Below, piece by piece: positions 14,301 to 49,737 of a stretch of DNA of 54,447 nucleotides (position 1 is its first letter; each line of letters begins with the position of its first letter). Below the pieces are notes generated by a model. The model was not told the DNA's origin, did no database searches, and saw only the letters and a program-made list of their open reading frames with translations. Position numbers and translations under genes: made by a program. Source of the stretch: a virus (Duplodnaviria; Caudoviricetes); IMG/VR virus record IMGVR_UViG_3300006735_000044, positions 1 through 54,447 of that record, one strand, 5' to 3'.

Positions 14301-17300
14301 TTTAGCATTCTATGATGCTACTGCATCTGCAAATAGAAAAATAACATTAACACAATTAATGGGTGCTGTGACTCATGGATTAATCCCAACATTACCTGCT
14401 GATAAAATTGGTAGTGGTGAATTTGGTACTAGCAGAATACCTATATTAGCACAATCTAAAATAGAAGATTTATCAACCGATTTAGCAGGTAAAGTTCCTA
14501 TTACTAGAACAGTAGCAGGTAGGGCATTGTCAAATAATCTAGCAGTTAGGGTTAATGCTGTTACAGGTAAGTTAGAATTTTATGATGGGAGTTCTACAAC
14601 AATTATACAAGATACCGCAGGTACTCCTGTTGATGTTATATTTGATAATAGAAAAACAGAATATGATGAGATTCAAGACGCTAATAATACTAAACCTGCT
14701 GACAATGCTACTGTTGGTGGAACATTAGGTTCTAGTGGAAATATATTATTAGAAGATGGTAGTACTAAGTTAACAGATACTACTGCATTAAATGCAAATA
14801 CTAATTGGTCGGATGTAGCAGGTACAGCAAACGCACCTGCAAATAACGCTACCGTTGGTGCTAGATTAGGTACTAATCTTAAAGCAGCAGATGGTTCTAC
14901 GACATTAGGTGATGCTGATGTAAAAAATGCTAATATTGCTTCTACGCATGTAGTTGGTACTGGTAAAATATTCGCTACTACTTTACCTGAAGATGGTGCT
15001 ACACGAAGTAGAACATTTAGACAAACAAGCGTACCTACTGCTGTTTCAGCAGGTGATATTTGGATTGATACCGATGATAATAATAGAATGTATCAGGCTC
15101 ATTCTGCGGGTGCAGATGAAGTTACATCAGGAGAATGGGAATCAATTGGCTTCCCTGCGGCAGAAGCAAATGCTACTGCAAGTGCAGGTACAGTTGATAC
15201 AACAGGAACAGTAAATGCAACTGAATATGCTAGATTTACAGATTCAAATACATTAGAAGCAAGAACAACAGCAGAGGTTCGTTCTGATTTAGGTATTTCA
15301 GATAATGAAATAATAGATTGGACTGCTGACCAAGGTTCTACAAATATTCATTCAGGTAATTATGATAATGACCAATTATCAACAGAGGCAGTACAAGATA
15401 TTGTAGGTAATATGTTTGAAAGTAATTCAGAAACAAGAATAGTTACTTCTTATATTGATGGTGGTGAAGGTGCAGGTAAGATACAACTAGTAGTTGCTGA
15501 CCAATCTTCTGATGACAATACAACTTATTCAATATCTGCGGTTGATGGTGATAATACTGATGAAGAAAAGATTCGATTAACTGATAGTGCAGGTGGTACT
15601 GATGATGTAGTACTTGAAGCAGGTACAGGATTAAGTATAGCAAGAAGTAGTGATAAAATTACTTTCACTAATACCGTTTCCAACACGAATGATTATGCAG
15701 AAAGCGTGTCGTTTAACACTGGTTCAGGTGTCTTTACACTGGGTAGAACGGGTTCGTTAGGTGATTTAACGGTTGATTTAGATGGTCGTTATGCCTTATC
15801 TGCGGCTAGTGGTGAATCTAATACTGCTTCTAACGTGGGTTCAGGTAGTGGTACAGAAGTAGGGGTATTCAAACAAAAAGATGGTGCTGACTTAGAATTT
15901 AAGAAATTAAAGCAAGGGTCTAATATTACTTTAACATCTAATACTAGTGATATAACTATTACTGCTACTGATACTCAATTAAGTACAACAGAAGTAACAG
16001 GTAAAGCACTAACTAATTTAAGTGTATCATCCGGTGGAGCAGTAGGTGCAACAGATTCTATATTAGTTGGTATAGGTAAGTTAGAAAATAGAGTAGCATT
16101 AAATGATGTTAAGGCAACTAATGTATCTACTAACTTAGGGATTACAGGAACAACAGGTGCAAGAACAATAACTTCTGATGGCACAAGTGCAGTAATACCT
16201 GTTGCTACTACATCTGTAAGCGGTGTAATGTCAACAGATATATTTGATGCTATTGCTCTTAATACAGCAAAGAATACTAATGTAGTAGGTAATTTAGCAG
16301 CAGTTGCAAATGGTACATCTTTAAGTATTACTACTACTAATGGTAATAATGTATCCTTGCCGTTAGCAGATACAAATAATTGGGGTGTAATATCTGATGA
16401 AATATTTGATAATATTACCGCTAACAATGCTAAGGTTAGTTATACTGATGCTTCTGCTGTTGCGGCTAATACTAATAAAGTTACAAACGTATCAACTAAT
16501 TTATCGGTAAGTAGAGATGGAACTAAATTACACGTTGTATCTTCTGACGGTACTGATGCCGAACTACCTTTAGCAGATACAAATAATTGGGGAGTTATGT
16601 CTGATGAAATGTTCGATAAACTAGATGGTATAGAAACATCTGCTGATGTAACAGATACGACAAATGTTCATTCTGCTCTTAATGCGGCAATGCCAAGTAA
16701 TGCTCTTACTATTGGTGACGGTAATACAGCAGTTTCAATTCCGGGTGATTTAACAGTAACAGGAACAGTGACTACAAATAATGTAGAGACTGTATCAACA
16801 AGTAATGGTGTAGTCTTTGAAGGTTCTACTGCTGATAATAGTGAGACAACATTAGTAGGTGGTAATCCAAGTGGGTCTAATAATGATATTACAATTACAT
16901 TACCTAATACACAAGGTACTTTAGCATTACAAAATGAAAATACTACGGGAACTGCGGGTGGTTTATCTTCTACTTTAGCAATATCAAGTGGAGGTACAGG
17001 TTCTACTACCGCTAGTGGTGCTAGAAGTAATTTAGGGTTGGGAACAGCAGCAACATTATCAGGAACAGGTGCAGTTTCTAACGGCAACGCAGGTTTAGTA
17101 ACAGGAGATGTGGTCTTTGATTATATAGCGGCACAAAACTTTGCATCTAGTGGGGCATCTAATTTCGTTGCGGGGGATATTACAGGTGCAGCAGATTTAG
17201 GAAATAATGTTGCTTCGGGAGATTCATTAATATTACACGATACATCTGAATCTGCTTTGAGAGAAATGACTATTGCTAATTTAACAACTTATTTTAATAG

Positions 17301-20300
17301 TGCTTCAATATTAACAAACTTAGCAAATACTGATACTGTTTACTCTCTTCCAACTGCCTCTTCAACTGTTTTAGGAGGTATTAAAGTTGGTTCTAATTTA
17401 ACAATTAATAATGGCGTATTATCGGGAACTCCTGATACTGTTTATACACATCCTTCACATAATGGAGATGATATAAATATAGATACAGGTGCTTTAACAG
17501 GTGCAACCGTTATATCAGATTTAGATTTTAATGTAACTACTGATACATTAGGACACGTTACAGATGCTAATGCTACAATAGCAACAAGAACATTAACATT
17601 AGCAAACTTAGGTTTTACAGGAGATGCTGACGCTACTGATGACTTAACTGCGGCAGAAATTAGAACTTTAGTTGGAACAGGTAATAGTGGTGTTGTACCC
17701 GCAGAAGGTAGTGCGGGAGAGTTTCTAAAACACGATGGTACTTTTGGTACTCCTAGTTATACTACTAATACAGATACTAATACATTTAGAACAATAGAGT
17801 TAGATACAAATGGTGATGGTTCTGCTAATAATACCTTAACTGCAACTGAAACATTAAGATTAAAGAAAGGTAGTAATATTACTTTAGCAGAAGTAGATGG
17901 TGTTGTAACTATTTCTTCTACTGATACTAATACTAACACCGAATACACAGCAGGAACTAACTTAACATTAAGTGGAACAGAGTTTAGTGTTGATGATGCA
18001 TTCTTGAAGAATGACGCTAATGATAGTACAACAGGAACAATAACTGCCGCAGGTTTTACAACAACAGGGACATGGACTTTTGACGATGCTTCAACAGGAA
18101 CAGTCGGTATTACTGCTATTCATACGGGTACTGGTTTTGCAGACAATGATACTTCTTTAATGACAGCAGGTGCTATTAAAGAAAAAATTGAAGATTATGG
18201 TTATATTACTTCATTTACTAATACCGTAGATATGGGTGATGGTTTCAAACTTAGGGATGATGATAATGATGATGTAACTGTTACTGAAAATAAATTTATC
18301 AAGTTTACTGCGGCAACAGGAACAGCAGGAACTAATGTAACAGGTTCAGGAACAACAGGCGACCCCTACATAATGGCTATTACTTTGCCTGATACAGTTT
18401 ATAGCCATCCAAACCATTCAGGTGATGTAACTTCAAGTAGTGATGGTGCAACTACTATTGCTGCTGATGCAGTAACATATGCTAAGATGCAAAATGTTGC
18501 TACTGCAAATAGAGTATTAGGAAGTTCAAGTGCAGATGGGGCAGTATCAGAAGTTCAAGTTGCTACTGCTATGATTGCTGACGATGCAGTAACTTATGCA
18601 AAATTACAACATACTGCAACAAATAATAGAGTATTAGGTGCAACATCAGCAGGTGTAATATCAGAAGTTCAAGTTAGTAATGCTATGTTAGCAGGTTCTA
18701 TTGCTGATTCTAAACTTTCTACAATTTCTACTGCTAATAAGGTTGCATTAACTGCATTAGATATAGATGGAGCGTCTGATATTGGGGCTAACTTAGTTGA
18801 TGCAGATTTAATGATTGTTGATGATGGAGCAGGTGGTACTAATAAAAAAGCAACAATGAGCAGTTTAGCCACTTATATGCAAAGTGCATTAACATTTACT
18901 AGTAATTCAGATGTAGATGTATCTGTTGATAATCTTGAAACTAGGTTAGGAGAAATAAATTCTAACGTCACCATTGGTAATGCTAATACAGTAGATACTA
19001 CTATTTCAGGAGACTTAACTGTAACAGGGGATTTATTAGTTAGTGGGGCTACTACAACATTAGATGTTGCTACATTAGCAGTAACAGATTTGAACATTAC
19101 AGTTGCTAAAGATGCTGATTCATCAGCAGCAACAAATGGAGCAGGTTTAACCTTTGGTTCAGGGTGGTCATCAGGAACTATACCAACTTTAACTTATGAC
19201 CATGGTAATACAAGATTAGCAGTTAACGTACCTTTACAGGCTACTAGTTTTGTTGGTAATGCTTCTTCTGCAACTCAAGCAACAGTTGCGACAAATGTTA
19301 CTATTACTAATAATGCTAATGCTGATGAAGACAATTTAATTCCATTTGTTCATAATGAAGAAGGTGCAGGGAGTAGAGGATTAGAAACAAATTCAGGATT
19401 CCACTACAATCCAAGTACAGGAAGATTTACTGCAACAAGTTTTGGTGGTAGTGTTGTTGGAGATTTAACAGGTAATGCTGATACTGCAACTAAATTTAAT
19501 AATACAGTTAATATTAACGGTGTTGCTTTTGATGGTTCAACAAATGTTACTGTTACTGCTGATGCTACGACTCTAACAGGTACAAGTTTGAAATCCTCAG
19601 TAGTTGGTTCTTCTTTAACAAGTGTTGGAACTATTACAACAGGTACTTGGAATGGAACTGCAATTGCTACTGCTTATATTGCAAATGATGCTATTAATAA
19701 TGATAAGATAGCGGATAATGCTGTTAGAACTGCTCAAATAGCAGATGACCAAATTACTACTGCTACTATCGCAGATGACCAAATTACTACTGCTACCATT
19801 GCTGACAATCAAATTACTAATGCAACAGTAGCAGACAATGCAATTCAATCAGACCAAATAAATGCTAATGCAGTTGTAGAAGCAAAGATTGCTGATGATG
19901 CTGTAACAGGTGCTAAGGTTAGTGGGTTTGCTATTACTAATACACAAGTTGGTGCAGGTACTTTATCAATTGAATTGGGTTCTACTGCAACAGCATTAAC
20001 TTTCAATACTCAAGCCCAAGCAGATTCATTCCCAACTTCAGGAGTTGTTGACGTTGGCGGTGAGAAAATAAAATACACTGGTAAAACAGGTGCAAGTTTA
20101 ACAGGATTGATTAGAGGCCACAAAGGAACAACTGCTGCAACTCATAATGCAAATGAGAGTGTTAAACATGAATATGCAAAACGAATTACATTAGGTGGTT
20201 CAAGAACATTAGAAGTTAAACAGTTTGAAGGTGCTGATTCTACTAATGCTACTGATTTAGCAGGTGGATTAGTACCTTATGCAGGTACAGGTGATACTGC

Positions 20301-40968: not shown

Positions 40969-41202
40969 TCACTCCTCCTCTGTTTTAGATAAAATTAAAT
41001 TCAACATTGCTTTTTCTACATGCGTAGTAGTAATTTTTCTATCACCACTTTCAGCATATATATTAACAATCTCTAAATTTAGTTCATTTAAACTAAATTG
41101 TATATACTTATCCATAATAGGATAAATATCTGCGCTGATATATGTTCCTGCTCTAAGTCTCTTCTTCAATTCTTTCTTTAGTTTTCTTATTGATATTATC
41201 AT
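40969..41202 (-). CDS. Histone-fold protein
   Basis: 77 aa; IRKLKKELK...YISADI...long helix...ESGDRKITTTHVEKA (HMf AGRKTVKAEDIELA equivalent). Confidence 0.65.
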   Translation of the reverse strand: MIISIRKLKKELKKRLRAGTYISADIYPIMDKYIQFSLNELNLEIVNIYAESGDRKITTTHVEKAMLNLILSKTEEE

Positions 41203-41395
41203 TTAATGCTCTCCTTAGTGCCTTATTTAGAGACTGGGCTTCGTCTATATTCATTCTAACACCTTTTTTGGTAGGTTTACCATTATCATACCATCGAATA
41301 TCTAATACATCTATATTCCAATAACTACCTGTCACTACAAGTAATTCTGACGTAGCACTTCTTGGTATTCTTACTACGATTCTTTCATTCTTCAT
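41153..41395 (-). CDS. PC4/Sub1-like ssDNA-binding transcriptional coactivator
   Basis: LDIRWY...PTKKGVRM signature. Confidence 0.8.
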   Translation of the reverse strand: MKNERIVVRIPRSATSELLVVTGSYWNIDVLDIRWYDNGKPTKKGVRMNIDEAQSLNKALRRALNDNINKKTKERIEEET

Positions 41396-41786: not shown

Positions 41787-42259
41787 TCTCTACCATTCCA
41801 TACTCTATACTTAACTTCATATTCAACTGTTACATCAAAAGGGAATATAGGAAATACTAAGGTAGCATTACCGAATTGTGGTGCATAACCACTATCCCAC
41901 AAGTATGTTCCTTGTTGAATATAACCATTAACATTAAATGTGAAATTATTAAATATTACAGTATTGTTTATGATATCAAAACTCAAATGAGTCAAATTGT
42001 AATGGAAATAATCTAATTCAATTAGACCGTGAGTTGTGTTAAAATCTAACACCACTGTTTCTTGTGTTGAATTATTCACATCATTAATTAAGTATGTAAA
42101 TGAACCATTCAACATAGACCAATCTTTCACACATTCTTCGTCTTCTGCAAACACTTCTTCAGGAGATGGTATAGTACATCCCGCTAACATAAATGTTAGT
42201 AAAAATACTAGTCCATATTCTCTTAATGTTGTCTGTCTTGAATTAAGTAGGTTCATCAC
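41771..42259 (-). CDS. Putative lipoprotein
   Basis: Hydrophobic stretch LVFLLTFM followed by lipobox LAGC; several N-x-S/T sequons. Confidence 0.6.
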   Translation of the reverse strand: MMNLLNSRQTTLREYGLVFLLTFMLAGCTIPSPEEVFAEDEECVKDWSMLNGSFTYLINDVNNSTQETVVLDFNTTHGLIELDYFHYNLTHLSFDIINNTVIFNNFTFNVNGYIQQGTYLWDSGYAPQFGNATLVFPIFPFDVTVEYEVKYRVWNGRECSPQ

Positions 42260-42813
42260 TCTTCACCTTCCGTTACAGTGTGCCTACCACTATTGGTCTT
42301 AATAAATGATACGTGCTTACCTATTTCAGTTTTACAATCATAAGCCCACACTTCACCTTGACCTAGAACAATAGCACTATCCAAATTACCTTTCCATGTA
42401 TCAACAGTTCTCCAATCAGTACCACTAAAATATGCTGACATATTAGGGTGAGTATGAATCCAACATTTAATAGGTAATTTCATTGGTTCTTCACTACCAT
42501 ATAACTCATCATCTTGATTTGCAAAAGATACAAAACCCGGTGTTCCAACACTCATGAATAGATTATTATTAGCATCTACTAACACTTGAACTTCTCTAGG
42601 AATATCAAAATACTCAATAGATTGTTTGTATATTTGACTAAGGAATGCTTCTGTACCAAAATCAGGATACACCCATTCCATACTATCAGAACATACTTCC
42701 CATAATTCTTTAATGGGTTTTTTCCATTCGTTATCTTTAACAACATTCTCCATTGTATTCAGATACAATCTATCATTCTTATCATATTCTTCTTCACTAT
42801 TCTTTATATTCAT
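42256..42813 (-). CDS. JAB/MPN+ (JAMM) metalloprotease, deubiquitinase-like
   Basis: Complete JAMM motif: E (PREVQV) ... WIHTHPNMSAYFSGTD (H-x-H-x7-S-x2-D). Confidence 0.88.
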   Translation of the reverse strand: MNIKNSEEEYDKNDRLYLNTMENVVKDNEWKKPIKELWEVCSDSMEWVYPDFGTEAFLSQIYKQSIEYFDIPREVQVLVDANNNLFMSVGTPGFVSFANQDDELYGSEEPMKLPIKCWIHTHPNMSAYFSGTDWRTVDTWKGNLDSAIVLGQGEVWAYDCKTEIGKHVSFIKTNSGRHTVTEGEE

Positions 42814-43190
42814 TCTATTACCCCTGTTTGTATTAATACTCCAACAACAACTGCGGCAATTAGAATTAATCTAAACACCATTTTATTATTAGTTTTCTTA
42901 ACCTCTGCTATCTTCTCATCTAAAACGTCTTTTACCTTTTCTAGATGTTCTTCCATTTCTTCTTCTTTAACCAAATCTTCATGCATCTCTTCTATATCTG
43001 AATCTATATGCCTTTCTTGTATAGCCTTAGATTTAATTTTAGTTTTTATTTGTGCTAAAGTTCTAATATCAACAAATCGCTCTGCTATATCTTCAACACT
43101 TAAACCCTCATCCAAATAATCACAAAGCATTGCTACTTCGGTTTCATTCCATTTTCCTTTATTTCCTTTACTTTTCTTCATTTTCTTCAC
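42810..43190 (-). CDS. Myb/SANT-like HTH protein with C-terminal transmembrane helix
   Basis: KGKWNETEVAML...SVEDIAERF..RTLAQIKTK; acidic coiled linker; LILIAAVVVGVLI. Confidence 0.6.
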   Translation of the reverse strand: MKKMKKSKGNKGKWNETEVAMLCDYLDEGLSVEDIAERFVDIRTLAQIKTKIKSKAIQERHIDSDIEEMHEDLVKEEEMEEHLEKVKDVLDEKIAEVKKTNNKMVFRLILIAAVVVGVLIQTGVIE

Positions 43191-43527
43191 CTTTTAATTC
43201 TTTGATTACAATTTTGTTTGTGAGCCTATCATCCTTAAAAAAAGGAATGGGGCTATTTTTAATAGTTATAGTAAATGTTTGACCATTCATCATATGAACC
43301 AACACACTCTTACCTGTATCAGATACAGCAAATATCTTATCTCTTAGAAAACTAGTCATCCCAAACTCCGTAGGGTACTCGTTAGTCCAATCTGATACTA
43401 CATTAACCATATTTACTTCTGATGGTTTAGAAGGTTTCCAGTCTTCTAATCCCATATCAGACTCCTCCTTGTTGAGATGCTCTGATACTCTCTTTGATAA
43501 TAGACTCATGATATACTTGATGTCCAC
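43168..43527 (-). CDS. Hypothetical protein (likely start 43455)
   Basis: GGAGG SD before MGLEDW. Confidence 0.55.
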   Translation of the reverse strand: MDIKYIMSLLSKRVSEHLNKEESDMGLEDWKPSKPSEVNMVNVVSDWTNEYPTEFGMTSFLRDKIFAVSDTGKSVLVHMMNGQTFTITIKNSPIPFFKDDRLTNKIVIKELKGEENEEK

Positions 43528-43699
43528 CTAAAAACCCTCCTGCATGTCTTTTTGTTCCTATAAACTCTTCACCACAAACATGACAACAAACTCTAACTAT
43601 TTCAGACCTGAGATAAATCCCATCTTTAGAAATAATACTTAATATTTCACCTATCTCCTCATCTGATAATTCTAAGTCGTCATCTACTTTATCACTCAT
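43457..43699 (-). CDS. C2H2-type Zn-finger protein
   Basis: CHVCGEEF...GHQVYH; ATGA-coupled to the E1-like gene. Confidence 0.6.
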   Translation of the reverse strand: MSDKVDDDLELSDEEIGEILSIISKDGIYLRSEIVRVCCHVCGEEFIGTKRHAGGFLGGHQVYHESIIKESIRASQQGGV

Positions 43700-44271
43700 A
43701 TATTAAACACCATACTTGTTTTTACTTCTTGCTTGTTGAACCATTTCTGAATCCATTGAGCAGCAATTGAAGCAATCACATTATTCATCATATTAACACC
43801 CTTAGCAGAACCATCCCAAGACTGTGCTTGGCACGAAAATGAACCTTCTTCTCCTGTTAACACAGTATCTACTAAATCAGGATTAAGCATGTATGATATT
43901 AGCGTAGCATTTCTACCTTGCGCTCTCAAATCTAACCACTTCACGGTAGCATCTTCACCTGTACCTTGCCTATAAAGCAAGCGTCTTACATCCAAATTAT
44001 CTGCACAACAGATAACTAGGTCATAACCTTTCAATTGTTTTGGTACTAAAACTAAATACGGTTGTGCTTTAACACCACTAAACTGACTACTAATCGCTTC
44101 TGCTTTATTTTCTCCTAAGTGGCTTTCATTATAGTGCTGATAAGTTAAATTCTTTTTCTCTACCTTATCATCATCAAAAACAGTTATGTCATAAATACCT
44201 AACCTTTCTAAATTATGTATTAACATACTACCTATACCACCTGCACCTATTATCATTATCTTTCTTTTCAT
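43696..44271 (-). CDS. ThiF/MoeB/E1-like adenylating enzyme
   Basis: IIGAGGIGS, FDDDKVEKKNLTYQ, KAE, YDLVICCADN...RR, candidate catalytic Cys in SFSCQ; no CxxC Zn pairs. Confidence 0.88.
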   Translation of the reverse strand: MKRKIMIIGAGGIGSMLIHNLERLGIYDITVFDDDKVEKKNLTYQHYNESHLGENKAEAISSQFSGVKAQPYLVLVPKQLKGYDLVICCADNLDVRRLLYRQGTGEDATVKWLDLRAQGRNATLISYMLNPDLVDTVLTGEEGSFSCQAQSWDGSAKGVNMMNNVIASIAAQWIQKWFNKQEVKTSMVFNI

Positions 44272-44272
44272 T

Positions 44273-44542
44273 TTAACTACTCCATTCTATTGTTTCCTTT
44301 TTTGTAAAGAGGGAAACTCTCTTTAATTTATAGCCGTAATCTGTTGCTACTACATATCTCCATATTTTTTTAGGAGATGACTCATAATATTCCATATCAA
44401 CTACCGTTACTTTAACATATCTGCCTTTTAATACAGTATATCCCTTATAACCAATATCATAATTATGAGAATTTCTCCATTTTTTCCAAAACTTTATATC
44501 ATTGACCATAAAATTACTTCCTAATTCCATTAATAAAATCAT
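44273..44542 (-). CDS. Hypothetical protein (likely start 44509)
   Basis: ORF filling the gap between TFB and E1. Confidence 0.5.
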   Translation of the reverse strand: MILLMELGSNFMVNDIKFWKKWRNSHNYDIGYKGYTVLKGRYVKVTVVDMEYYESSPKKIWRYVVATDYGYKLKRVSLFTKKETIEWSS

Positions 44543-45416
44543 TTAGTGTTAAATAATTTAATTTATTTTTATCCACATTATATAATTGTAAAATCTTTTT
44601 CATATTCTTTCTTAGTGATACTTCAGTAGTACCCACTAGTTTAGCAACTTCTTGTTGTGTATAGTTTTCTCGTCTAAATACAGAGACTAAATAAAAACAT
44701 GCAGACAAAGTTGCTATTGTAAATTGTACACCATGTGCATCTAGTTTTTGGTAAACGTGTTCTGATAATTTACTTACATCCCCAATATATTGAGGATTAG
44801 GTAAATATAATTTTGAACCAACTTCTTGAATCAATCCTTCAATATTCATTTGAGAAAATACCCAAGGCTTACCCAAATGAGTTGCTATCACTCTAGCGTA
44901 TTTTGATATTTCACCTCTAGGTATCTTAGTTACATTAGAATGTTTCTGTACTGTTACTGCAATACCTGCTTCTTTCAATATATAATAAGTTAAACTTGCT
45001 GCTCTATTATCAATAGGTACTGCTCTTAATGCCTGTTTTTTATTTAGTAGATTATAATATTTACTTACTCTACTCTTTAATACGGGCGCTACGTTATAAT
45101 AAGATAAATTCATATTAGATAATTTTAACATCCTCAAGTAAGATTCATTCAATGGATTATTATGTCTTTGAGTGAAGAATAGTTTTCTACCTACAACACC
45201 AAATTTATTGATATCCCCTTTATGAATTGTTGAACCTAAGTCCCAAGATTTGTTAGGTGAACCTGTATAATCTATATTTGATATATTATAATCTACGTTT
45301 CTAATAGTATCTTCAAATATATTTTGGATTAAAACAAGTCCACAATCTAAACAAACTTGTTCACCTAATCTTTCGTCAAACACATTTTTTTCTGATTTAC
45401 ATTCTATACATTTCAT
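44514..45416 (-). CDS. tfb: Transcription initiation factor B (TFB/TFIIB) homologue
   Basis: Zn ribbon CIEC...FDERLGEQVCLDCGLVL, two cyclin repeats, BRE-binding HTH TQQEVAKLVGTTEVSLRKN. Confidence 0.88.
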   Translation of the reverse strand: MKCIECKSEKNVFDERLGEQVCLDCGLVLIQNIFEDTIRNVDYNISNIDYTGSPNKSWDLGSTIHKGDINKFGVVGRKLFFTQRHNNPLNESYLRMLKLSNMNLSYYNVAPVLKSRVSKYYNLLNKKQALRAVPIDNRAASLTYYILKEAGIAVTVQKHSNVTKIPRGEISKYARVIATHLGKPWVFSQMNIEGLIQEVGSKLYLPNPQYIGDVSKLSEHVYQKLDAHGVQFTIATLSACFYLVSVFRRENYTQQEVAKLVGTTEVSLRKNMKKILQLYNVDKNKLNYLTLNDFINGIRK

Positions 45417-46642
45417 AAATAACCCCTCTCAGATATTAAATCTAAATTATCAAAATACTCTTTAGGTAGCCTATGATATTCTTCATCAGGTAATCTCATA
45501 GTATTAATTTGTGAACTTGATGTAACATCATTCATGAGGAACATTGCTCTTGCAGCAAATTGGTCGCCTACACTAGAGTTCCTGTGGATGTTATCTATAC
45601 ATACACCAGTTGTCTTACCCAAAACAACAGTACCATCTTTAGGATGTGTTACACTTTCAGCACTCTTAGTGAACTCATTCTTTCTATTTAGAATAAATCT
45701 AGTAGTTTTGACTTTTTGAGTAACAGATGAAGAACCGAGATTCTCCATTAATATCCAATCGCACCTTTGACCTCTAACTATCATTATAGTTCTTAAACCT
45801 TTAAGTTTAAAGACTCTTATTTTATTAGGGAACTTACTTTCTAATTCTGTCAATAACTCTTCGGCTCTCTTCTCAACCAATGACTGTGTTCTATTTTGTT
45901 TTAAGAAAGCATACATTAATTTTGTTTGAGATTTACTAGGTAATTCACCTAATAATTTTCTCCATAAGTTCTCAGGTGAAACTCCCCATTTCTCAGACCG
46001 CTTATGACCATGCCTATGAAAATTAACAAACGAATTTAAATCTTTGATAGCAATATTAGCCCAAACACCATCGGATAATTCTAATGCACATTCCTTATCG
46101 GATATAATTTTTGTTTTGATTCTGACATTATGTTTCACCATATCACCATCCTTACTGTAAAATGAATATGGTGTTCTGTTTTCTACTGAATGCATTACGT
46201 TAGGTGGGAATAATAACAACCTACGAATATACCTATCCATCTTTACACTACTATTTTCAAAACAAGAACGATAAAATATTTTACTTAAATTAGCCATAAT
46301 AATAGATTTATTACCCTTCTCACCATTTAAGAAAAAGTGAGGTTTATTCTTTTGAAACACAATAGTTGAATCTCCATCTTTATACTTAAAAGTAATAATA
46401 GTAGTTAGATTATCATTAGTTGACATAAATAAAAACTTATTTATTGCAGTACTAATACCCGCATAAATAGGGTCTAAACTATTTCTTTTTTCTTTATTAA
46501 GTTCAACAGTTACAGGATATTCCCCAAACCTATTGAGTTTACGCCTATAATCACGCTTAATATCAGTAGTACGGTACAGGAAACTAGTTGTATCATACGT
46601 GTTACTATCATCTGCTCTTGCTATTTTCATCTTAACTTTCAT
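45413..46642 (-). CDS. Hypothetical protein with possible E2-like C-terminal Cys motif
   Basis: 409 aa; THPK...GVCIDNI; coupled to tfb; E2 assignment speculative. Confidence 0.5.
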   Translation of the reverse strand: MKVKMKIARADDSNTYDTTSFLYRTTDIKRDYRRKLNRFGEYPVTVELNKEKRNSLDPIYAGISTAINKFLFMSTNDNLTTIITFKYKDGDSTIVFQKNKPHFFLNGEKGNKSIIMANLSKIFYRSCFENSSVKMDRYIRRLLLFPPNVMHSVENRTPYSFYSKDGDMVKHNVRIKTKIISDKECALELSDGVWANIAIKDLNSFVNFHRHGHKRSEKWGVSPENLWRKLLGELPSKSQTKLMYAFLKQNRTQSLVEKRAEELLTELESKFPNKIRVFKLKGLRTIMIVRGQRCDWILMENLGSSSVTQKVKTTRFILNRKNEFTKSAESVTHPKDGTVVLGKTTGVCIDNIHRNSSVGDQFAARAMFLMNDVTSSSQINTMRLPDEEYHRLPKEYFDNLDLISERGYL

Positions 46643-46914
46643 TCTTCTTCATCCCCAAATAAATACTTATCTCCAATGGTTTGGATTCCTTCAATTTCTA
46701 AATCATTAATGAAGCAATGCATTGCAACCATATCTCTAGGCAACCTACGAAAGTCAACCCAACTCATTGGAGTACCCATAACATTAGGTCTTCTTAGGGA
46801 TGATTCACAATCAGATGTATTATACCGATTGGTATAAGCCCCTGACTCTTTCAATTTCTTTCTATATGCTTTAATTATTTTACTCTTAGGTAAGTTCTCG
46901 TAAATTATCTTCAT
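46639..46914 (-). CDS. Hypothetical protein
   Basis: Packed ORF with GAGGA SD. Confidence 0.55.
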   Translation of the reverse strand: MKIIYENLPKSKIIKAYRKKLKESGAYTNRYNTSDCESSLRRPNVMGTPMSWVDFRRLPRDMVAMHCFINDLEIEGIQTIGDKYLFGDEEE

Positions 46915-47173
46915 TTATATTCCTCTCTTTATATTTTTTATATTCATGTATTTCTACTATTTTTGTGAGGGCTAAATCCCTCGGCACATTATTGATAGTA
47001 TTCATTGTTCTCAATAGGTTGTGCATAAATGTTAGGGGGGACATATTGCCATCCTCTAACTGTTTAAATCTTACTTTTATGTTTTCTATGACTACTGGAT
47101 TAGAAAATAAACTATATATTTCCTGTTCTATTTCCAAGAACTCTTCCCTGTTTAGTTTTGACCTATATCTCAT
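46886..47173 (-). CDS. Hypothetical protein
   Basis: ATGA-coupled to RNR stop. Confidence 0.55.
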   Translation of the reverse strand: MRYRSKLNREEFLEIEQEIYSLFSNPVVIENIKVRFKQLEDGNMSPLTFMHNLLRTMNTINNVPRDLALTKIVEIHEYKKYKERNINEDNLRELT

Positions 47174-49062
47174 ATTTCACAAACTCCACCCGCACAGGCA
47201 ATCTCTCCTTGCAAGTCAGTATAATCATCATATTCCTTTACATCCTTAAAATCTAAATCAGAAAGTTTACTGAACATTTCATTATATTCAGATTCAGTTA
47301 TTTCTTCAAATGGCGCTTGTTTATAAGAACCATTATCATATGGTAAAACTGCTAGACCATTGTAATAATGTCTATTTAACCACATCCACGCACCTACATC
47401 TTCCCACTCATCTTCACGAATCTGAACAGTTGCAGATACATTATGAGTGTTCAATCCATCTCTATGACCACGTTGAACCCATCCAACAGAGAAACGCTTT
47501 ACACGTTCTAACATATCAATAGCAGATTCATGTCTAGTTATTATATCACCTTTAGGTGCTTTTTGTGGTATAGAAAATACTGCTTCGGTAGCACTAAAGT
47601 AATCATCTTCTATTAATTCAGGAACTTTATCTAATAGATATTGATATACAGGTTCTACCTTATTTACTCTAACTCTTCTATTATAGAATGGAGCATACCA
47701 AGGATGAATACCCGATGAAGTACCTAATACACAACTAGCAGTTCCCGATGGTTTAACACAAGTAACTCTTGCTGCTTTATTTATCCCAAGCAATTCAGCA
47801 ACTCTTTCATTTTCATTCTTTGCAACGATTGCTGCCTGTTCAATATCTAACAAAGTTACCTTATTACTACCTATTCCAGTCATAGACACACCTAAAAGCG
47901 CATCTTTTTCAGTAGTTTTCTGCCAAACTTCTCTTAAATAATGGAAATCTGTATAACCTGCTTGTAAAGTTCCTAAGAAAGCAGCCGCTTTAACTCTCTC
48001 TTCCAAATCTTCTTGAGATAAAACATCAGAAACATTACATTCAGTCAAGTTACAAAACTGATAAGGGCGTAAAGCAATCTCACAACAAGGATTTGTTCCC
48101 CAATCTTTATCATGAGAGAAATATATTCCCGGTTCTCCTGAATTAGATAATCTAATTCTTTCCCATAAATCTTCAAAGAAGCCCTTTTCTATTCTATGTC
48201 TAAGTAAGAATGCTGAGTTATTCGCTCTACCTCTTTGTGGATTCTGTTCATACCACTTACCTGCTTTACAATTAATCATTTCATTATCATCAGCACTAAA
48301 TAAAGATATTAATGCTGCTCGTCTAATGCCACCTGATAAAACTGCATGAGCAATATGACATAATATATCATGACACTCTAAAGGAGTTAGTTGTGTACCT
48401 TCTTCTTTCTGTAATAACATTGTTTCAATTTTAACCAATGCTATTTTTAGTGGTGCAGGACCGGGTGCTTTCCCACCACTAGTTTTTAGTGGCGCACCTT
48501 TAGGTCTAATATCATCATAATCAAAATTAGGTGAAGATGTTCTCATACCAAAGTATGATTCAAAAAGAACTTTAATTGCATCAGCCCAACCTTCAATAGA
48601 ATCATTAATTAATATTCTTCTAAACTTATCAGGATTGGGTTTTCTAATCGTTGGTAGTTGTTCTACATGGTGTCGTTGTACAGAATAACCTACTCCTGTT
48701 CCACCTAATAACAAAAACATAGATTCAGAGAAACACTCTAAAGAATCTATTGGCATATATGCACAATTGTATAATCTGTTTGGTGATAGTTCTATTGGTT
48801 TACCTGCAAATTGAAAAGACCTCATTGATGGAACTACCTTTCTAGTTTTAACATAGTTCTCATATATATTTTCTATCTCTTCAATCAGTTGAGGATTACC
48901 TAGATTAACATATTTTTTAAGATGCATTTGTTTATTTCTTTCACAAATCTCATCCCAAGATTCTCTTCTATTTTCTTCTGTCTTATATTTAGCATACTTC
49001 GTAAATACATTGAACTCTGATAGCACTTTATTTTGTAATTCCATTTCTTTCATCTTTAACAC
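47170..49062 (-). CDS. nrdJ: Class II (adenosylcobalamin-dependent) ribonucleoside-triphosphate reductase, monomeric type
   Basis: RESWDE, PSMR, YNC, GGTGVG, GGIRRAA, GEPG, TNPCCEI, CNLTE, CVKPSGT, C-terminal CAGGVC; no small subunit gene in the window. Confidence 0.93.
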   Translation of the reverse strand: MLKMKEMELQNKVLSEFNVFTKYAKYKTEENRRESWDEICERNKQMHLKKYVNLGNPQLIEEIENIYENYVKTRKVVPSMRSFQFAGKPIELSPNRLYNCAYMPIDSLECFSESMFLLLGGTGVGYSVQRHHVEQLPTIRKPNPDKFRRILINDSIEGWADAIKVLFESYFGMRTSSPNFDYDDIRPKGAPLKTSGGKAPGPAPLKIALVKIETMLLQKEEGTQLTPLECHDILCHIAHAVLSGGIRRAALISLFSADDNEMINCKAGKWYEQNPQRGRANNSAFLLRHRIEKGFFEDLWERIRLSNSGEPGIYFSHDKDWGTNPCCEIALRPYQFCNLTECNVSDVLSQEDLEERVKAAAFLGTLQAGYTDFHYLREVWQKTTEKDALLGVSMTGIGSNKVTLLDIEQAAIVAKNENERVAELLGINKAARVTCVKPSGTASCVLGTSSGIHPWYAPFYNRRVRVNKVEPVYQYLLDKVPELIEDDYFSATEAVFSIPQKAPKGDIITRHESAIDMLERVKRFSVGWVQRGHRDGLNTHNVSATVQIREDEWEDVGAWMWLNRHYYNGLAVLPYDNGSYKQAPFEEITESEYNEMFSKLSDLDFKDVKEYDDYTDLQGEIACAGGVCEI

Positions 49063-49436
49063 CTTAATTTTTTTCTTTCTACTATTTGGTCAAATGAAGA
49101 GAATGAATGAACATATTCACCATTCTTCTTTACGACCCATTCTCTCTCGACCAAAAAGTTCCAAGATGGGAAGGTAGAAATTACATCAATTCCATATTCT
49201 GAAATTAAATCATCTACGTCTTTGTATTGTTTATTTTTATATTCAATCAGGGTTTCCCCATCACAAATAATAACGGCTTTCATACTCACTGCTAGAACAT
49301 ATCCAACAGGATAAAAGTCGGGCTTCATTAAAGTATAATCTTCATATTTTTTACTATCACGGTAAAGCCAACCTTGTGATTTCAAAAAGACTGGTAATAT
49401 TCCAGTCGGTAATATATTCGCATAATCGCATAACAT
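49056..49436 (-). CDS. Hypothetical protein
   Basis: AGGAGAGG SD; directly upstream of nrdJ. Confidence 0.6.
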   Translation of the reverse strand: MLCDYANILPTGILPVFLKSQGWLYRDSKKYEDYTLMKPDFYPVGYVLAVSMKAVIICDGETLIEYKNKQYKDVDDLISEYGIDVISTFPSWNFLVEREWVVKKNGEYVHSFSSFDQIVERKKLRC

Positions 49437-49531
49437 AGGATTCCTCTCCTAAGAAGGTATGAGGGGCAGCAAGTTGTGAGGGAATGCTGCCACCTCAATT
49501 GTAGAGACATAAATACCTAAATGGTATTTAT
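49437..49531 (-). promoter_or_regulatory. Structured intergenic element (two hairpins) between Ubl gene and RNR operon
   Basis: 9-bp perfect IR 49509-49517/49523-49531; 12-bp GC-rich stem with one bulge 49460-49471/49485-49497. Confidence 0.55.
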
Positions 49532-49737
49532 TGGTTGCCTCCACCCTGCATCCCCGGCATTAGTAGTACATCTGCTACTGAATCCCAGTCTGTTGCTGTA
49601 ATTGTTTCTTTAGGTACTTGAATCCCATCAAGATATATCCAATGTGTTGGATGGTCTTGTATTTGGTCAAGCATATCATCTATTGTCATATTTTCCATTA
49701 CCGTATGTCCGGTTTCATTTGCTATTGTTAATTTCAT
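49528..49737 (-). CDS. Ubiquitin-like (ThiS/MoaD/SAMP beta-grasp) protein with masked di-Gly terminus
   Basis: 69 aa; MKLTI...MTIDDMLDQI...IYLDGIQV...DVLLMPGMQGG-GNQ parallels ThiS/MoaD (TxxELL...vNG...DxVxIxPxVxGG). Confidence 0.75.
   Translation of the reverse strand: MKLTIANETGHTVMENMTIDDMLDQIQDHPTHWIYLDGIQVPKETITATDWDSVADVLLMPGMQGGGNQ

What the first reader, a model, noticed from the sequence alone, without database searches (positions are those of the whole stretch)
42256..49737. Candidate virus-encoded ubiquitin-like conjugation system (Ubl + E1 + JAMM, possible E2) in an archaeal virus
Seen: one co-oriented block encodes a 69-aa beta-grasp-like protein ending MPGMQGG-GNQ (49528-49737), a ThiF/E1 adenylase with a candidate catalytic Cys (43696-44271) and a JAMM protease with an intact E...HxHx7SxxD motif (42256-42813). 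Established: this trio is the core of haloarchaeal SAMPylation (SAMP/UbaA/JAMM); bacterial antiviral systems use the same parts (CBASS Cap2/Cap3 has E1-E2 and JAB; Bil conjugates a Ubl to phage tail proteins). No sulfur-acceptor enzymes (ThiG, MoaE, TtuA/Ncs6) are visible in the window. Inference: the virus carries its own protein-tagging pathway, to redirect host proteasomal or regulatory SAMPylation, modify its own TFB/histones/replisome, or counter Ubl-based host defence.
Basis: partly seen in the sequence, partly recalled or inferred. Interest (0 to 1): 0.92.

Follow-up and report, generated by a model that had tools for sequence, protein, structure and literature searches.

The report
Virus-encoded ubiquitin-like protein, E1 and JAMM
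A marine archaeal virus carries a small ubiquitin-like protein, the enzyme that activates it and a protease that trims it, all related to a gene cluster of its likely host, which suggests the virus runs its own protein-tagging (or sulfur-carrier) pathway.

Summary
All three ORFs exist on the minus strand. The 69-aa protein folds as a beta-grasp (pLDDT 89). Its Gly-Gly is invariant in 24 orthologues, is followed by 0-3 variable residues, and uses nine different codon pairs. The 191-aa protein is a ThiF/E1 adenylation domain (Pfam E 2.6e-21) with one invariant loop cysteine. The 185-aa protein keeps E...HxHx7SxxD in 31 of 31 orthologues.

The three belong together. In Candidatus Poseidoniales genomes, homologues occur as Ubl-Ubl-E1 fusion proteins with the JAMM gene next door. 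The Ubl family was found in 110 of 201 species genomes searched, often as tandem poly-Ubl. The viral E1 scores higher against these operon E1s than against the hosts' MoeB-like ThiF proteins. In virus relatives anchored on the neighbouring ligase, E1 and JAMM were present in 46 of 46 loci and the Ubl in 43 of 46.

Not shown: whether the output is protein conjugation or a thiocarboxylate. No E2, rhodanese, MoaE or TtuA-type gene was found in five near-complete relatives.

A second "GG-tailed" protein (p80) is better explained by a Shine-Dalgarno site.

Verdict: a real Ubl-E1-JAMM module, a new variant of a known kind, with biochemistry untested.

The parts
49528..49737 (-). Ubl precursor, 69 aa. 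The predicted mature part covers residues 1-66 (49540-49737) and ends in Gly65-Gly66. The tail Gly-Asn-Gln is at 49531-49539 and the stop codon at 49528-49530.
   Evidence: ORF. Beta-grasp model, pLDDT 89. Ubiquitin / MoaD / ThiS structural neighbours. Invariant GG plus a 0-3 residue variable tail in 24 orthologues. GG encoded by 9 different codon pairs, with no printed start codon directly after the stop except in L001, about 16 nt on. Pieces covering this gene are present in contigs of 4 marine RNA libraries.
43696..44271 (-). Compact E1-like adenylation enzyme, 191 aa, ThiF family. It has no rhodanese domain, no E2 domain and no CxxC pairs. The invariant Cys147 codon lies at 43831-43833.
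   Evidence: Pfam ThiF E 2.6e-21. PADLOC E1-E2 (Cap2-type) models match the N-terminal Rossmann half only, best E 1.8e-14. PDB profile hits to a ThiF-type protein (9egc), Uba4, Cap2, MoeB and MccB at about 1e-9. Invariant GxGGxGS, D33, D35, K56, D91, R96, R116, R120, S144, S146, C147 and Q148 in 30 orthologues. Homologous to the E1 part of Ubl-E1 fusion proteins.
42256..42813 (-). JAMM/JAB metalloprotease, 185 aa. The catalytic motif comprises E74 (42592-42594) and H120-x-H122-x7-S130-x2-D133 (42415-42456).
   Evidence: Motif invariant in 31 of 31 orthologues. Prok-JAB is the only Pfam family hit, by 23 of 31 members. PDB profile hits AMSH-LP at 2.4e-5. Homologues (E 1e-16 to 6e-18) lie directly beside the host Ubl-Ubl-E1 gene.
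43457..43699 (-). p80, an 80-aa protein with conserved Cys/His residues, encoded directly after the E1 gene. Its membership of the system is doubtful.
   Evidence: Present in 28 of 46 ligase-anchored relatives. Invariant C39, C42, H52, H60, H64 and a C-terminal GG plus one residue. However, the GG codons are GGA GGA in 18 of 24 locus orthologues (and in the window). The next gene's ATG overlaps the stop or follows it within about 2 nt in most of the 25 rows (a Shine-Dalgarno position). In 3 rows (L006, L008, L020) an ATG follows but the gene behind it was not identified. Not found in 5 host genomes.

Best explanation
The block encodes a genuine three-part ubiquitin-like system that is a conserved core module of this lineage of head-tailed marine archaeal viruses. 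The lineage is magrovirus-like and its likely hosts are Candidatus Poseidoniales.

Proposed mechanism (all steps inferred; none was assayed):
1. The 69-aa beta-grasp protein is made as a precursor.
2. The JAMM metalloprotease removes the 0-3 residues after the invariant Gly-Gly. It may also reverse conjugates.
3. The compact 191-aa ThiF-type E1 binds the mature Ubl and adenylates its C-terminal glycine with ATP.
4. The activated Ubl is most likely passed to the invariant Cys147 in the predicted crossover-loop region. From there it goes directly, without an E2, to lysines of viral or host proteins, as in archaeal SAMPylation.

The module is homologous to a Poseidoniales chromosomal operon with two forms: a poly-Ubl fused to E1 plus a JAMM gene, or a poly-Ubl fused to an unknown domain plus separate E1 and JAMM genes. 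The virus therefore carries its own diverged version of a host-lineage pathway.

My odds: about 0.85 that the three genes are a functionally linked Ubl/E1/JAMM system, and about 0.5 that its output is protein conjugation.
For: Shown by sequence and models:
- Beta-grasp fold of the Ubl.
- The Gly-Gly is invariant with a variable 0-3 residue tail in 24 orthologues; one orthologue ends exactly at GG.
- The GG is encoded by 9 different codon pairs in 23 loci, with no printed start codon directly after the stop except in L001, about 16 nt on. Selection therefore acts on the protein.
- E1: ThiF E 2.6e-21. The nucleotide-binding and Asp/Lys/Arg residues and a single loop cysteine are invariant.
- The JAMM motif is invariant in 31 of 31.

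Functional linkage:
- A profile search of 1.84 billion representatives found 143 relatives of the Ubl.
- These include tandem 2x and 3x poly-Ubl proteins in which nearly every repeat ends in GG (the two repeats of P0252 end in AG), and Ubl-E1 and Ubl-Ubl-E1 fusions (P0275, P0250).
- The E1 part of the fusions is 27-30% identical to the window's E1 and matches Pfam ThiF at about 1e-17.
- The fusion gene sits in Poseidoniales MAG contigs among cellular genes. A JAMM homologue of the viral protease lies immediately downstream (E 6e-18 to 2e-16).
- A second host operon has a poly-Ubl-X fusion, then E1, then JAMM.
- The Ubl family was found in 110 of 201 Poseidoniales species genomes.
- The viral E1 profile scores 95, 85, 68 and 63 bits over its full length on operon E1s. 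It scores 43-46 bits on the N-terminal half only of the hosts' other ThiF proteins.
- In a tree, the 30 viral rows (support 89/87) and the 6 operon rows (93/84) are each one side of a branch, and the 3 MoeB-like rows lie on a far longer branch.

Conservation in viruses:
- Of 34 E1-anchored loci, 33 have the JAMM and 28 have the Ubl. The 6 loci without the Ubl have under 4.9 kb of upstream sequence.
- Of 46 ligase-anchored loci with at least 9.7 kb upstream, JAMM was in 46, E1 in 46 and Ubl in 43. The 3 misses run off the fetched flank.

Against a sulfur role:
- In 5 relatives 93-100% complete: PF01171 (TtuA/Ncs6-type) 0 of 5, Rhodanese 0 of 5, MoaE 0 of 5.
- Pfam scans of 45 ORFs of the complete relative G001 and 28 further window ORFs found structural and replication genes only.

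Weak support for expression: contigs of 4 marine RNA libraries from 3 studies cover parts of the Ubl, E1-p80 and JAMM genes at 90-99% identity.
Against: - No biochemical step was tested.
- No E2 or E3 was found. UQ_con was 0 of 5, but that search's control rang in no genome, so it shows little.
- The E1 is unusual. The Arg of the canonical NLxRQ motif (motif name recalled) is Tyr in nearly all viral copies and His in the host operon copies. There are no CxxC pairs. PDB and PADLOC alignments cover only the N-terminal ~100 residues. Adenylation competence is therefore assumed.
- Placing Cys147 in the crossover loop rests on my recalled layout of MoeB/ThiF, not on a model.
- Structural scores for the Ubl are modest (Foldseek E 5e-3, TM about 0.44; VIA Z at most 5.2). 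The best VIA row is MoaD, a sulfur carrier.
- ThiS-ThiF fusions, and JAMM trimming of sulfur carriers, are known in sulfur pathways (Iyer 2006, passages seen). Fusion and a trimmed tail therefore do not separate conjugation from sulfur transfer.
- Every relative examined has the whole module. Co-loss, the stronger phyletic test, could not be observed.
- The RNA-library contigs cannot exclude DNA carry-over.
Confidence: 0.6

Rival explanations
1. Sulfur-carrier system. The E1 adenylates the Ubl, a host persulfide donor converts it to a thiocarboxylate, and the sulfur goes into a tRNA, a cofactor or another small molecule using host enzymes. The JAMM only matures the carrier, as in QbsD/QbsE or Mec+/CysO (those names are recalled).
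For: - The best VIA-align row is MoaD (Z 5.2), with ThiS, CysO, TtuB and Urm1 also in the list.
- Weak Pfam ThiS hits in 4 of 24 orthologues.
- The ...PAVVGG ending is ThiS/MoaD-like (recalled).
- No E2 was found (weak control).
- ThiS/MoaD + JAB + E1 operons and ThiS-ThiF fusions are listed for sulfur pathways by Iyer 2006.
Against: - No rhodanese, MoaE or PP-loop thiolase in 0 of 5 near-complete relatives. ThiG was not searched on its own.
- No sulfur-metabolism family appeared in Pfam scans of G001 and the window.
- The E1 has no rhodanese domain.
- Host relatives are tandem poly-Ubl proteins of 2-4 repeats. I know this form only from conjugation-type systems (Iyer 2006 row 6e and the Bub operons).
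- The host operon sits among glycosyltransferase and transporter genes, not cofactor genes.
Confidence: 0.2
2. Counter-defence or hijack. The host poly-Ubl/E1/JAMM operon is an antiviral conjugation system like the bacterial Bil or Bub systems. The viral copies exist mainly to interfere with it. The viral JAMM would strip host Ubl from viral proteins. The viral Ubl and E1 would compete with or mis-direct the host pathway, rather than tag targets for the virus's own programme.
For: - Each viral part has a homologue in the host operon.
- The host operon resembles the bacterial 6E/Bub architecture: a Ubl with 1-3 beta-grasp domains fused to a second domain, plus JAB and E1. That paper links Bub to antiphage immunity.
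- Borg elements of archaea carry many JAMM genes proposed to undo host SAMPylation.
Against: - A protease alone would suffice for stripping. Yet the Ubl, E1 and JAMM are all kept in every relative examined.
- Viral and host E1s form separate, deeply split groups (about 2 substitutions per site each). This argues against recent mimicry.
- The host operon's neighbours are ordinary housekeeping genes, and no defence genes were seen beside it.
- Nothing shows that the host system is antiviral.
Confidence: 0.15
3. The three genes are unrelated neighbours in a replication module. The protease and the adenylase act on other substrates, and the small protein merely happens to end in Gly-Gly.
For: - The Ubl gene lies 5.2 kb from the E1 gene, with ribonucleotide reductase, TFB and other genes between them.
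- The whole module is syntenic, so co-occurrence within this virus lineage alone proves little.
Against: - Ubl-E1 fusion proteins exist, with the JAMM gene adjacent, in host genomes.
- Selection on the Gly-Gly acts at the amino-acid level.
- The variable tail after GG is typical of a processed precursor.
Confidence: 0.04

Closest known systems
Haloarchaeal SAMPylation (SAMP1-3 / UbaA / HvJAMM1); names recalled, cf. the passages
   Same: A small beta-grasp modifier ending in Gly-Gly, a single ThiF-type E1, a JAMM protease and no E2. The likely host is an archaeon.
   Different: - The viral E1 is much shorter (191 aa) and lacks CxxC pairs.
- It has Tyr where the canonical NLxRQ motif has Arg.
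- It is closer to a separate Poseidoniales operon E1 than to the hosts' MoeB-like proteins, which do carry NLQRQ.
- The Ubl is made with a tail, and host relatives are poly-Ubl or are fused to the E1.
Bacterial Bub (6E) operons: BubAB Ubl-E2 fusion, BubCD JAB-E1 fusion, BubE (PMC11601596, abstract and sections 5 and 7 read; Iyer 2006 Table 1 row 6e)
   Same: - Ubl proteins with 1-3 tandem beta-grasp domains, sometimes fused to a second domain.
- A JAB peptidase that cuts out the Ubl.
- A minimal homodimer-type E1 without a separate cysteine domain.
- The host Poseidoniales operon (poly-Ubl-X, E1, JAMM) has the same outline.
   Different: - In the virus the three parts are separate genes spread over 7.5 kb.
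- No E2-like domain was recognised, and the host X domain matches no known family.
- DUF6527/BubE was not searched for.
- BubCD has no crossover-loop cysteine and works through oxyesters, whereas this E1 keeps an invariant cysteine.
- The PDB match of the viral E1 profile to BubCD is weak (E 6.7e-4).
Type II CBASS Cap2 (E1-E2) / Cap3 (JAB) and Bil systems
   Same: An E1 adenylation domain and a JAB protease that act on a C-terminal glycine. PADLOC Cap2-type E1-E2 models hit the viral E1 (best E 1.8e-14).
   Different: - Only the Rossmann half matches. There is no E2 domain and no CD-NTase.
- The viral E1 (window gene) gave no BilD hit among the 25 of 31 PADLOC families shown. One host operon E1 hit BilD at E 3.7e-4.
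- Those are bacterial defence systems, whereas this is a core gene set of a virus.
JAMM-matured sulfur carriers (ThiS/MoaD + JAB + E1 operons, Iyer 2006 Table 1 rows 4a-4e; QbsCDE and CysO/Mec+, recalled)
   Same: A ThiS/MoaD-like beta-grasp protein with residues after GG, a JAB peptidase and an E1-like enzyme.
   Different: Those E1s are usually fused to rhodanese and the operons carry sulfur-metabolism genes. Here there is no rhodanese domain and no sulfur enzyme in five near-complete genomes.
Ubl-system parts on other prokaryotic mobile elements: Borg JAMM 'deSAMPylases' (PMC12660748) and the lambda-type tail-assembly Ubl TAPI with the JAB of TAPK (Iyer 2006)
   Same: Mobile genetic elements of prokaryotes that carry JAMM proteases and/or beta-grasp Ubl domains.
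   Different: - Borgs carry mainly the protease. One Borg has a SAMP, and the E1 is in the host.
- The phage TAPI/TAPK set has no E1.
- Here one virus carries the Ubl, the E1 and the JAMM together.

Membership tests
Ubiquitin-like beta-grasp modifiers/carriers (ThiS/MoaD/SAMP/Ub superfamily) | Beta-grasp fold | tested here: met
   The AF2 model has pLDDT 89 and the order b-b-a-b-b-a-b. All 50 listed Foldseek PDB rows are ubiquitin entries (probability 0.85-0.99, E >= 5e-3). VIA-align top rows are MoaD, Ubl and ThiS at Z 3.8-5.2. BFVD rows are mostly viral ubiquitins and Ubl domains, with some unnamed proteins and tail protein J. The scores are modest, as expected for 66 residues.
Ubiquitin-like beta-grasp modifiers/carriers (ThiS/MoaD/SAMP/Ub superfamily) | C-terminal Gly-Gly exposed directly or after trimming | tested here: met
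   G65-G66 is invariant in 24 of 24 orthologues. The tail is 0-3 residues and variable, and one orthologue ends at GG. Nine codon pairs encode the GG.
Ubiquitin-like beta-grasp modifiers/carriers (ThiS/MoaD/SAMP/Ub superfamily) | Sequence match to a curated family (Pfam ThiS, ubiquitin) | tested here: not met
   No family passes its cut-off. ThiS is hit by 4 of 24 members, best E 0.0073. There is no sequence match in the PDB.
E1-like adenylating enzymes (ThiF/MoeB/UbaA) | ThiF-type Rossmann adenylation domain with a GxGxxG loop and an Mg-binding Asp | tested here: met
   Pfam ThiF E 2.6e-21, above the cut-off. G9-x-G11-G12-x-G14 and D91 (CADN) are invariant in 30 sequences.
E1-like adenylating enzymes (ThiF/MoeB/UbaA) | Canonical Arg of the NLxRQ motif and the two CxxC zinc pairs (features recalled) | tested here: not met
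   The Arg position is Tyr in nearly all of the 30 viral sequences (Y44 is 'nearly invariant') and His in the host operon E1s. The hosts' MoeB-like proteins do have NLQRQ. The only invariant cysteines are C88, C89 and C147.
E1-like adenylating enzymes (ThiF/MoeB/UbaA) | Catalytic cysteine in the crossover loop | tested here: inconclusive
   C147, in the motif G-S-F-S-C-Q, is invariant in the viruses, and the S-C-Q part is also kept in host operon E1s that are only 27-30% identical. Its position in the crossover loop is inferred from a recalled domain layout. No E1 model was made.
JAMM/JAB metalloproteases | E...HxHx7SxxD zinc site | tested here: met
   E74, H120, H122, S130 and D133 are invariant in 31 of 31. 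The PDB profile aligns this motif to AMSH-LP at E 2.4e-5.
Archaeal SAMPylation (SAMP/UbaA/JAMM) | The E1 is the UbaA/MoeB orthologue of the lineage | tested here: not met
   The viral E1 profile scores 43-46 bits, on the N-terminal half only, against the hosts' MoeB-like proteins. It scores 63-95 bits over its full length against the poly-Ubl operon E1s. The tree agrees.
Archaeal SAMPylation (SAMP/UbaA/JAMM) | Isopeptide conjugates on target lysines | not testable with these tools
   This needs expression and mass spectrometry.
Bub / 6E poly-Ubl operons | Ubl with 1-3 tandem beta-grasp domains fused to an E2-like domain | tested here: inconclusive
   The virus has a single Ubl with no fusion. 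Host relatives are 2-4x tandem and some are fused to a ~300-aa domain X. X matches nothing in Pfam, PADLOC, the PDB or the ESM Atlas, so its E2 nature is unknown.
Bub / 6E poly-Ubl operons | JAB fused to E1; DUF6527 serine protease | not tested
   In the virus, JAB and E1 are separate genes 0.9 kb apart. In hosts they are adjacent. DUF6527 was not searched for.
CBASS Cap2/Cap3 | E1-E2 fusion with a CD-NTase substrate | tested here: not met
   PADLOC E1-E2 models align only to residues 1-127 of the 191-aa protein. There is no E2 part. No nucleotidyltransferase appeared in the Pfam scans.
ThiS/MoaD sulfur-carrier pathways | Sulfur donor or acceptor enzyme (rhodanese, MoaE, ThiG, TtuA/Ncs6) in the same genome | tested here: not met
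   PF01171 0 of 5, Rhodanese 0 of 5 and MoaE 0 of 5 near-complete relatives, with controls ringing in 11-14 of 14 genomes. ThiG was not searched on its own. Host enzymes could still serve.

The most novel reading that the evidence does not exclude
An abundant group of marine archaeal viruses encodes a complete, self-sufficient, E2-independent protein-conjugation pathway: a precursor Ubl, a minimal E1 and a JAMM maturase/deconjugase. It descends from the same stock as a lineage-wide poly-Ubl system of its Poseidoniales hosts. The virus uses it during replication to tag host or viral proteins, or to override a host Ubl-based antiviral system. This would be the first autonomous ubiquitin-like conjugation machinery in a virus of prokaryotes, and it would reveal an uncharacterised Ubl pathway in one of the ocean's most abundant archaea.
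Probability: 0.4. Interest if true: 0.9.

Novelty: new variant of a known kind. Interest (0 to 1): 0.78.

Why it matters
Ubl/E1/JAMM sets are known in archaea (SAMPylation), in bacterial antiphage systems (CBASS, Bil, Bub) and in sulfur-carrier pathways.

What is in print for archaeal viruses, as far as my searches reached:
- MoeB/ThiF genes are a prevalent 'auxiliary' gene of archaeal viruses, with a remark about ubiquitination (PMC8276007, passage seen).
- Borgs carry JAMM proteases (PMC12660748, passages seen).

What this work adds:
- The cognate diglycine Ubl and its protease.
- The finding that the three genes are a fixed core module of the virus lineage.
- A link to a previously unremarked poly-Ubl/E1/JAMM operon found in 110 of 201 Poseidoniales species genomes searched.

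If the output is protein conjugation, three points become testable:
- How a prokaryotic virus uses a modifier of its own.
- What the host operon does (defence, proteostasis or regulation) in an uncultivated but globally abundant archaeon.
- How minimal an E1 can be.

All three proteins are small, which makes them practical for in-vitro reconstitution.

Tried and rejected
1. p80 (43457-43699) as a second Gly-Gly-tailed E1 substrate.
- Its C-terminal GG plus exactly one residue is invariant in 25 sequences, and the gene directly follows the E1 gene.
- However, the GG codons are GGA GGA in 18 of 24 locus orthologues and in the window. The next gene's ATG overlaps the stop or follows it within about 2 nt in most of the 25 rows; in 3 rows (L006, L008, L020) an ATG follows but the gene behind it was not identified.
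- Shine-Dalgarno-like motifs precede 20 of 39 minus-strand starts in the window.
- The conservation is therefore better explained by a ribosome-binding site for the downstream gene.
- The model is three strands plus a long helix, not a beta-grasp, with no Foldseek PDB match (best E 1.6) and no PDB sequence match.
- p80 is missing from 18 of 46 relatives and from 5 host genomes.
- The single complex-prediction job (two E1 copies plus p80 residues 1-79) returned 'no answer', score 0.00. I draw nothing from that result.

2. p409 (45413-46642) as an E2-like fourth component related to domain X of the host poly-Ubl-X fusions.
- By eye, both share a short Cys-containing motif.
- hhalign aligns that motif, but only at E 0.08 and 0.03 with probability under 2%.
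- HMM scores between the two families do not exceed the 20 shuffles made of each database sequence.
- The p409 profile does hit other host proteins of 448-492 aa (E 1.3e-4 to 9e-3; 17.8 bits against 5.8 for the best shuffle). Those proteins are not in the Ubl operon.
- Rejected as unsupported. p409 has no match in Pfam, PADLOC, the PDB or the ESM Atlas.

3. Domain X: no match in Pfam, PADLOC, the PDB or the Atlas.

4. Phyletic co-loss test: relatives were fetched through the neighbouring ligase, but all of them carry the module, so no informative absences exist.

5. The 'phages' collection gave no tblastn match to the E1. A viral-contig scan with the Ubl-E1 fusion P0275 found nothing.

6. UQ_con search: 0 of 5, but its control rang nowhere, so it is uninformative.

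7. Literature.
- No paper holds 'magrovirus' together with 'ubiquitin'.
- The main texts of three magrovirus papers and of the archaeal Caudoviricetes paper have 0 mentions of ThiF, JAB or ubiquitin.
- 'Poseidoniales' + 'ubiquitin-like' returned one unrelated paper.
- 'archaeal viruses' + 'ubiquitin-like' + 'JAMM' returned two papers.
- Supplementary gene tables were closed and may list these genes.

9. Not done: models of the E1 and the JAMM, models of the Ubl-E1 and Ubl-JAMM complexes, and a separate ThiG search.

Full report
**What the window is.** The window is a 54,447-base IMG/VR virus record, estimated 57% complete. Its G+C content is 0.29-0.38.
- From about 23.6 kb to the end, almost all long ORFs lie on the minus strand.
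- Pfam scans show a replication module: family-B DNA polymerase in two ORFs, an RFC-like AAA protein, ERCC4 and PD-(D/E)XK nucleases, ATP-dependent DNA ligase, a PC4-like protein, TFB and a class II ribonucleotide reductase.
- A 96%-identical (E1 protein), complete 95.6-kb relative (G001) adds portal, prohead protease, SU10-type capsid, tail tube and terminase genes.
- This gene content fits the published description of magroviruses, including 'ribonucleotide reductase in group B' (PMC5434244, passage seen).
- I did not place the window in a magrovirus group by phylogeny, so 'magrovirus-like' is an inference.

*E1.* The 191-aa protein is a ThiF-family adenylation domain (Pfam E 2.6e-21).
- In 30 orthologues the glycine-rich loop, D33, D35, K56, D91, R96, R116, R120 and the stretch S144-x-S146-C147-Q148 are invariant.
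- It is unusually small. It starts at the first Rossmann strand.
- It has no rhodanese or E2 domain and no CxxC pairs.
- It carries Tyr where canonical E1s have the Arg of NLxRQ (the motif name is recalled). The host's MoeB-like proteins show NLQRQ.

*JAMM.* The 185-aa protein is only a sub-threshold Pfam Prok-JAB hit.
- That is the only family hit, by 23 of 31 orthologues.
- A profile of the 31 aligns its HxH...S..D segment to AMSH-LP (E 2.4e-5).
- E74, H120, H122, S130 and D133 are invariant.

*Ubl.* The 69-aa protein has no family match but folds confidently (pLDDT 89, pTM 0.75) with beta-grasp topology.
- All 50 listed Foldseek PDB rows are ubiquitin entries.
- VIA-align's top rows are MoaD, Ubl domains, ThiS, CysO, TtuB and Urm1.
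- BFVD returns mostly viral ubiquitins and Ubl domains.
- All of these scores are modest: E at best 3.6e-3, Z at most 5.2.

**The Gly-Gly.** In 24 distinct orthologues, G65-G66 is invariant. All but one are 41-63% identical to the window's protein. The GG is followed by nothing, or by one to three residues that vary freely: C, Y, V, F, L, N, IR, RF, TE, SL, CN, LQ, GNQ. This is the signature of a modifier or carrier made as a precursor.
- The two glycines use nine different codon pairs in 23 loci.
- No printed start codon follows the stop directly except in L001, about 16 nt on. The constraint is therefore on the protein.
- I made this check because a second small protein, p80, also ends in an invariant GG plus one residue.
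- For p80 the codons are almost always GGA GGA and sit at Shine-Dalgarno distance from the next gene's ATG. I therefore do not count p80 as a modifier.

**Do the three genes belong together?** Within the virus lineage the whole module is syntenic.
- Of 34 loci fetched through the E1, 33 have the JAMM and 28 have the Ubl. The six without the Ubl have less than 4.9 kb of upstream DNA.
- Of 46 loci fetched through the neighbouring ligase with at least 9.7 kb upstream, 46 have the JAMM, 46 the E1 and 43 the Ubl. The three misses run off the flank.
- Because nothing is ever lost, this alone is weak evidence.

The stronger evidence comes from outside the viruses.
- A profile search with the Ubl over 1.84 billion representatives found 143 relatives.
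- Among them are proteins with two or three tandem Ubl repeats, nearly all ending in GG (the two repeats of P0252 end in AG).
- There are also Ubl-E1 (P0275) and Ubl-Ubl-E1 (P0250) fusions, and Ubl repeats fused to an unknown ~300-residue domain X.
- The E1 part of the fusions is 27-30% identical to the window's E1 and is a ThiF domain.
- The fusion gene lies in contigs of Candidatus Poseidoniales genomes among ABC-transporter, glycosyltransferase, GDP-mannose dehydratase, wyosine-synthesis and phosphate-transporter genes.
- A homologue of the viral JAMM (E 6e-18 to 2e-16) lies directly downstream.
- A second operon form has poly-Ubl-X, then a 216-aa E1, then a 171-aa JAMM.
- The Ubl family was found in 110 of 201 Poseidoniales species genomes at E<=1e-5, often as 2-4 tandem copies. 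These genomes are incomplete, so this is a lower bound.

**Relation to the host's ordinary E1.**
- The viral E1 profile scores 95, 85, 68 and 63 bits over its full length on the operon E1s.
- It scores 43-46 bits, on the first ~100 positions only, on the hosts' other ThiF proteins.
- In a maximum-likelihood tree of 39 rows (two masked fragments left out), the 30 viral rows and the six operon rows each form one side of a branch (support 89/87 and 93/84).
- The three MoeB-like rows sit on a much longer branch.
- With three groups and no outgroup, the tree cannot give a donor or a direction of transfer.
- The viral set is therefore not a copy of the canonical SAMP/UbaA pair. It is a diverged sibling of a separate host-lineage Ubl system.

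**Conjugation or sulfur?** Nothing computed here decides this.

For conjugation:
- Poly-Ubl precursors in the same family.
- No rhodanese on the E1.
- No rhodanese, MoaE or TtuA/Ncs6-type gene in five relatives that are 93-100% complete.
- No sulfur-metabolism family in Pfam scans of 45 G001 ORFs and 28 further window ORFs; ORFs under about 90 aa and the two giant ORFs were not scanned.

For sulfur transfer:
- The best structural row is MoaD.
- ThiS is the only meaningful, though weak, Pfam signal.
- No E2 was found (that control was silent).
- Iyer et al. 2006 list ThiS-ThiF fusions and ThiS/MoaD + JAB + E1 operons in sulfur pathways.

I put protein conjugation at about 0.5, sulfur carriage at about 0.2, and the rest on interference with the host system or other outcomes.

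**Comparison with known systems.**
- The host operon's outline (a Ubl with several beta-grasp domains fused to a second domain, plus JAB and a minimal E1) resembles the bacterial 6E/Bub operons. There, BubCD (JAB-E1) cuts BubAB (Ubl-E2) and conjugation runs through oxyesters (PMC11601596, abstract and sections 5 and 7). It also resembles row 6e of Iyer 2006.
- I could not show that domain X is E2-like.
- Unlike BubCD, this E1 keeps an invariant cysteine.
- The viral arrangement (single Ubl, separate E1 and JAMM, no E2) works more like SAMPylation, but it fails the membership test for the UbaA orthologue.

**Prior reports.**
- The RaFAH paper notes that a MoeB/ThiF gene is among the most prevalent auxiliary genes of archaeal viruses and mentions ubiquitination.
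- Borgs are reported to carry many JAMM proteases.
- I found no report of the cognate Ubl, of the trio in magroviruses, or of the Poseidoniales poly-Ubl operon (searches; text finds).
- Supplementary tables were closed.

**Expression.** Contigs assembled from four marine RNA libraries of three studies cover parts of the JAMM gene, the E1-p80 junction and the Ubl gene at 90-99% identity. These are contigs from RNA libraries. They show presence, not proven transcription.

**Verdict.** Its biochemical output and its targets are unknown. It is a new variant of a known kind, and small enough to reconstitute in vitro.

Noticed in passing
window 43457-43699 and 43168-43527: p80's invariant C-terminal Gly-Gly codons (GGA GGA) lie at Shine-Dalgarno distance from an ATG 1 nt after its stop. 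That ATG is an internal Met of the listed 119-aa ORF, so the true start of that gene is probably this ATG, not the GTG at 43527.
   Followed up: yes
L047 7878-9152; L067 34-1628; L068 1789-3572 (Poseidoniales genome contigs): Candidatus Poseidoniales genomes carry an unannotated operon in two forms: Ubl-Ubl-E1 fusion plus JAMM, and poly-Ubl-X plus E1 plus JAMM. They also carry stand-alone ~85-aa Ubl genes. The Ubl family was found in 110 of 201 species genomes searched.
   Followed up: partly
proteins P0251, P0290, P0271, P0289 (residues after the last GG): A ~230-320-residue domain X is fused behind one or two Ubl repeats. It has a Cys in a C-I-Q/S context in four of the five aligned sequences (the fifth, P0262, is cut short there) and no match in Pfam, PADLOC, the PDB or the ESM Atlas. 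By analogy with BubAB it could be an E2-like domain, but this is untested.
   Followed up: partly
window 45413-46642: The 409-aa protein of unknown function is conserved in all relatives (46 of 46). It has one invariant Cys (C348) in a C-terminal Cys...G-D-Q...N-D motif. Weak homologues of that C-terminal part exist in host proteins of 448-492 aa; one of these host proteins (L070) has Cys-rich N-terminal motifs.
   Followed up: partly
window 43696-44271: The viral E1 has Tyr, and the host operon E1s have His, at the position of the Arg in the canonical NLxRQ motif. The hosts' MoeB-like proteins keep the Arg. This may mean altered ATP handling.
   Followed up: no
window 4229-10984 and 11329-22662 (+ strand): Two giant ORFs of 2251 and 3777 aa on the plus strand, also present in G001 (2201 and 3720 aa). 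They were not analysed.
   Followed up: no
window 44514-45416, 41153-41395, 47170-49062: A TFB-like transcription factor (TFIIB zinc ribbon, E 2e-7), a PC4-like protein and a class II ribonucleotide reductase are interleaved with the Ubl-system genes. The Ubl gene sits just upstream of the reductase gene in most relatives, and it persists in two relatives (L019, L031) where no reductase match was found.
   Followed up: partly
protein P0112: One Ubl homologue is named by a source as 'sulfur transfer complex TusBCD TusB component (DsrH family)'. I saw no support for that name, and the other 119 listed relatives carry no functional name.
   Followed up: no
G001 (L042-L044): In the Pfam scan of the first 45 ORFs of G001 (positions 1-47.3 kb), one ORF matched the ATP-dependent DNA ligase domain, separate from the ligase at the window-equivalent position (57.2 kb). 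Others matched a pyrimidine-dimer glycosylase, an RNA-ligase-like domain and a GNAT acetyltransferase.
   Followed up: no
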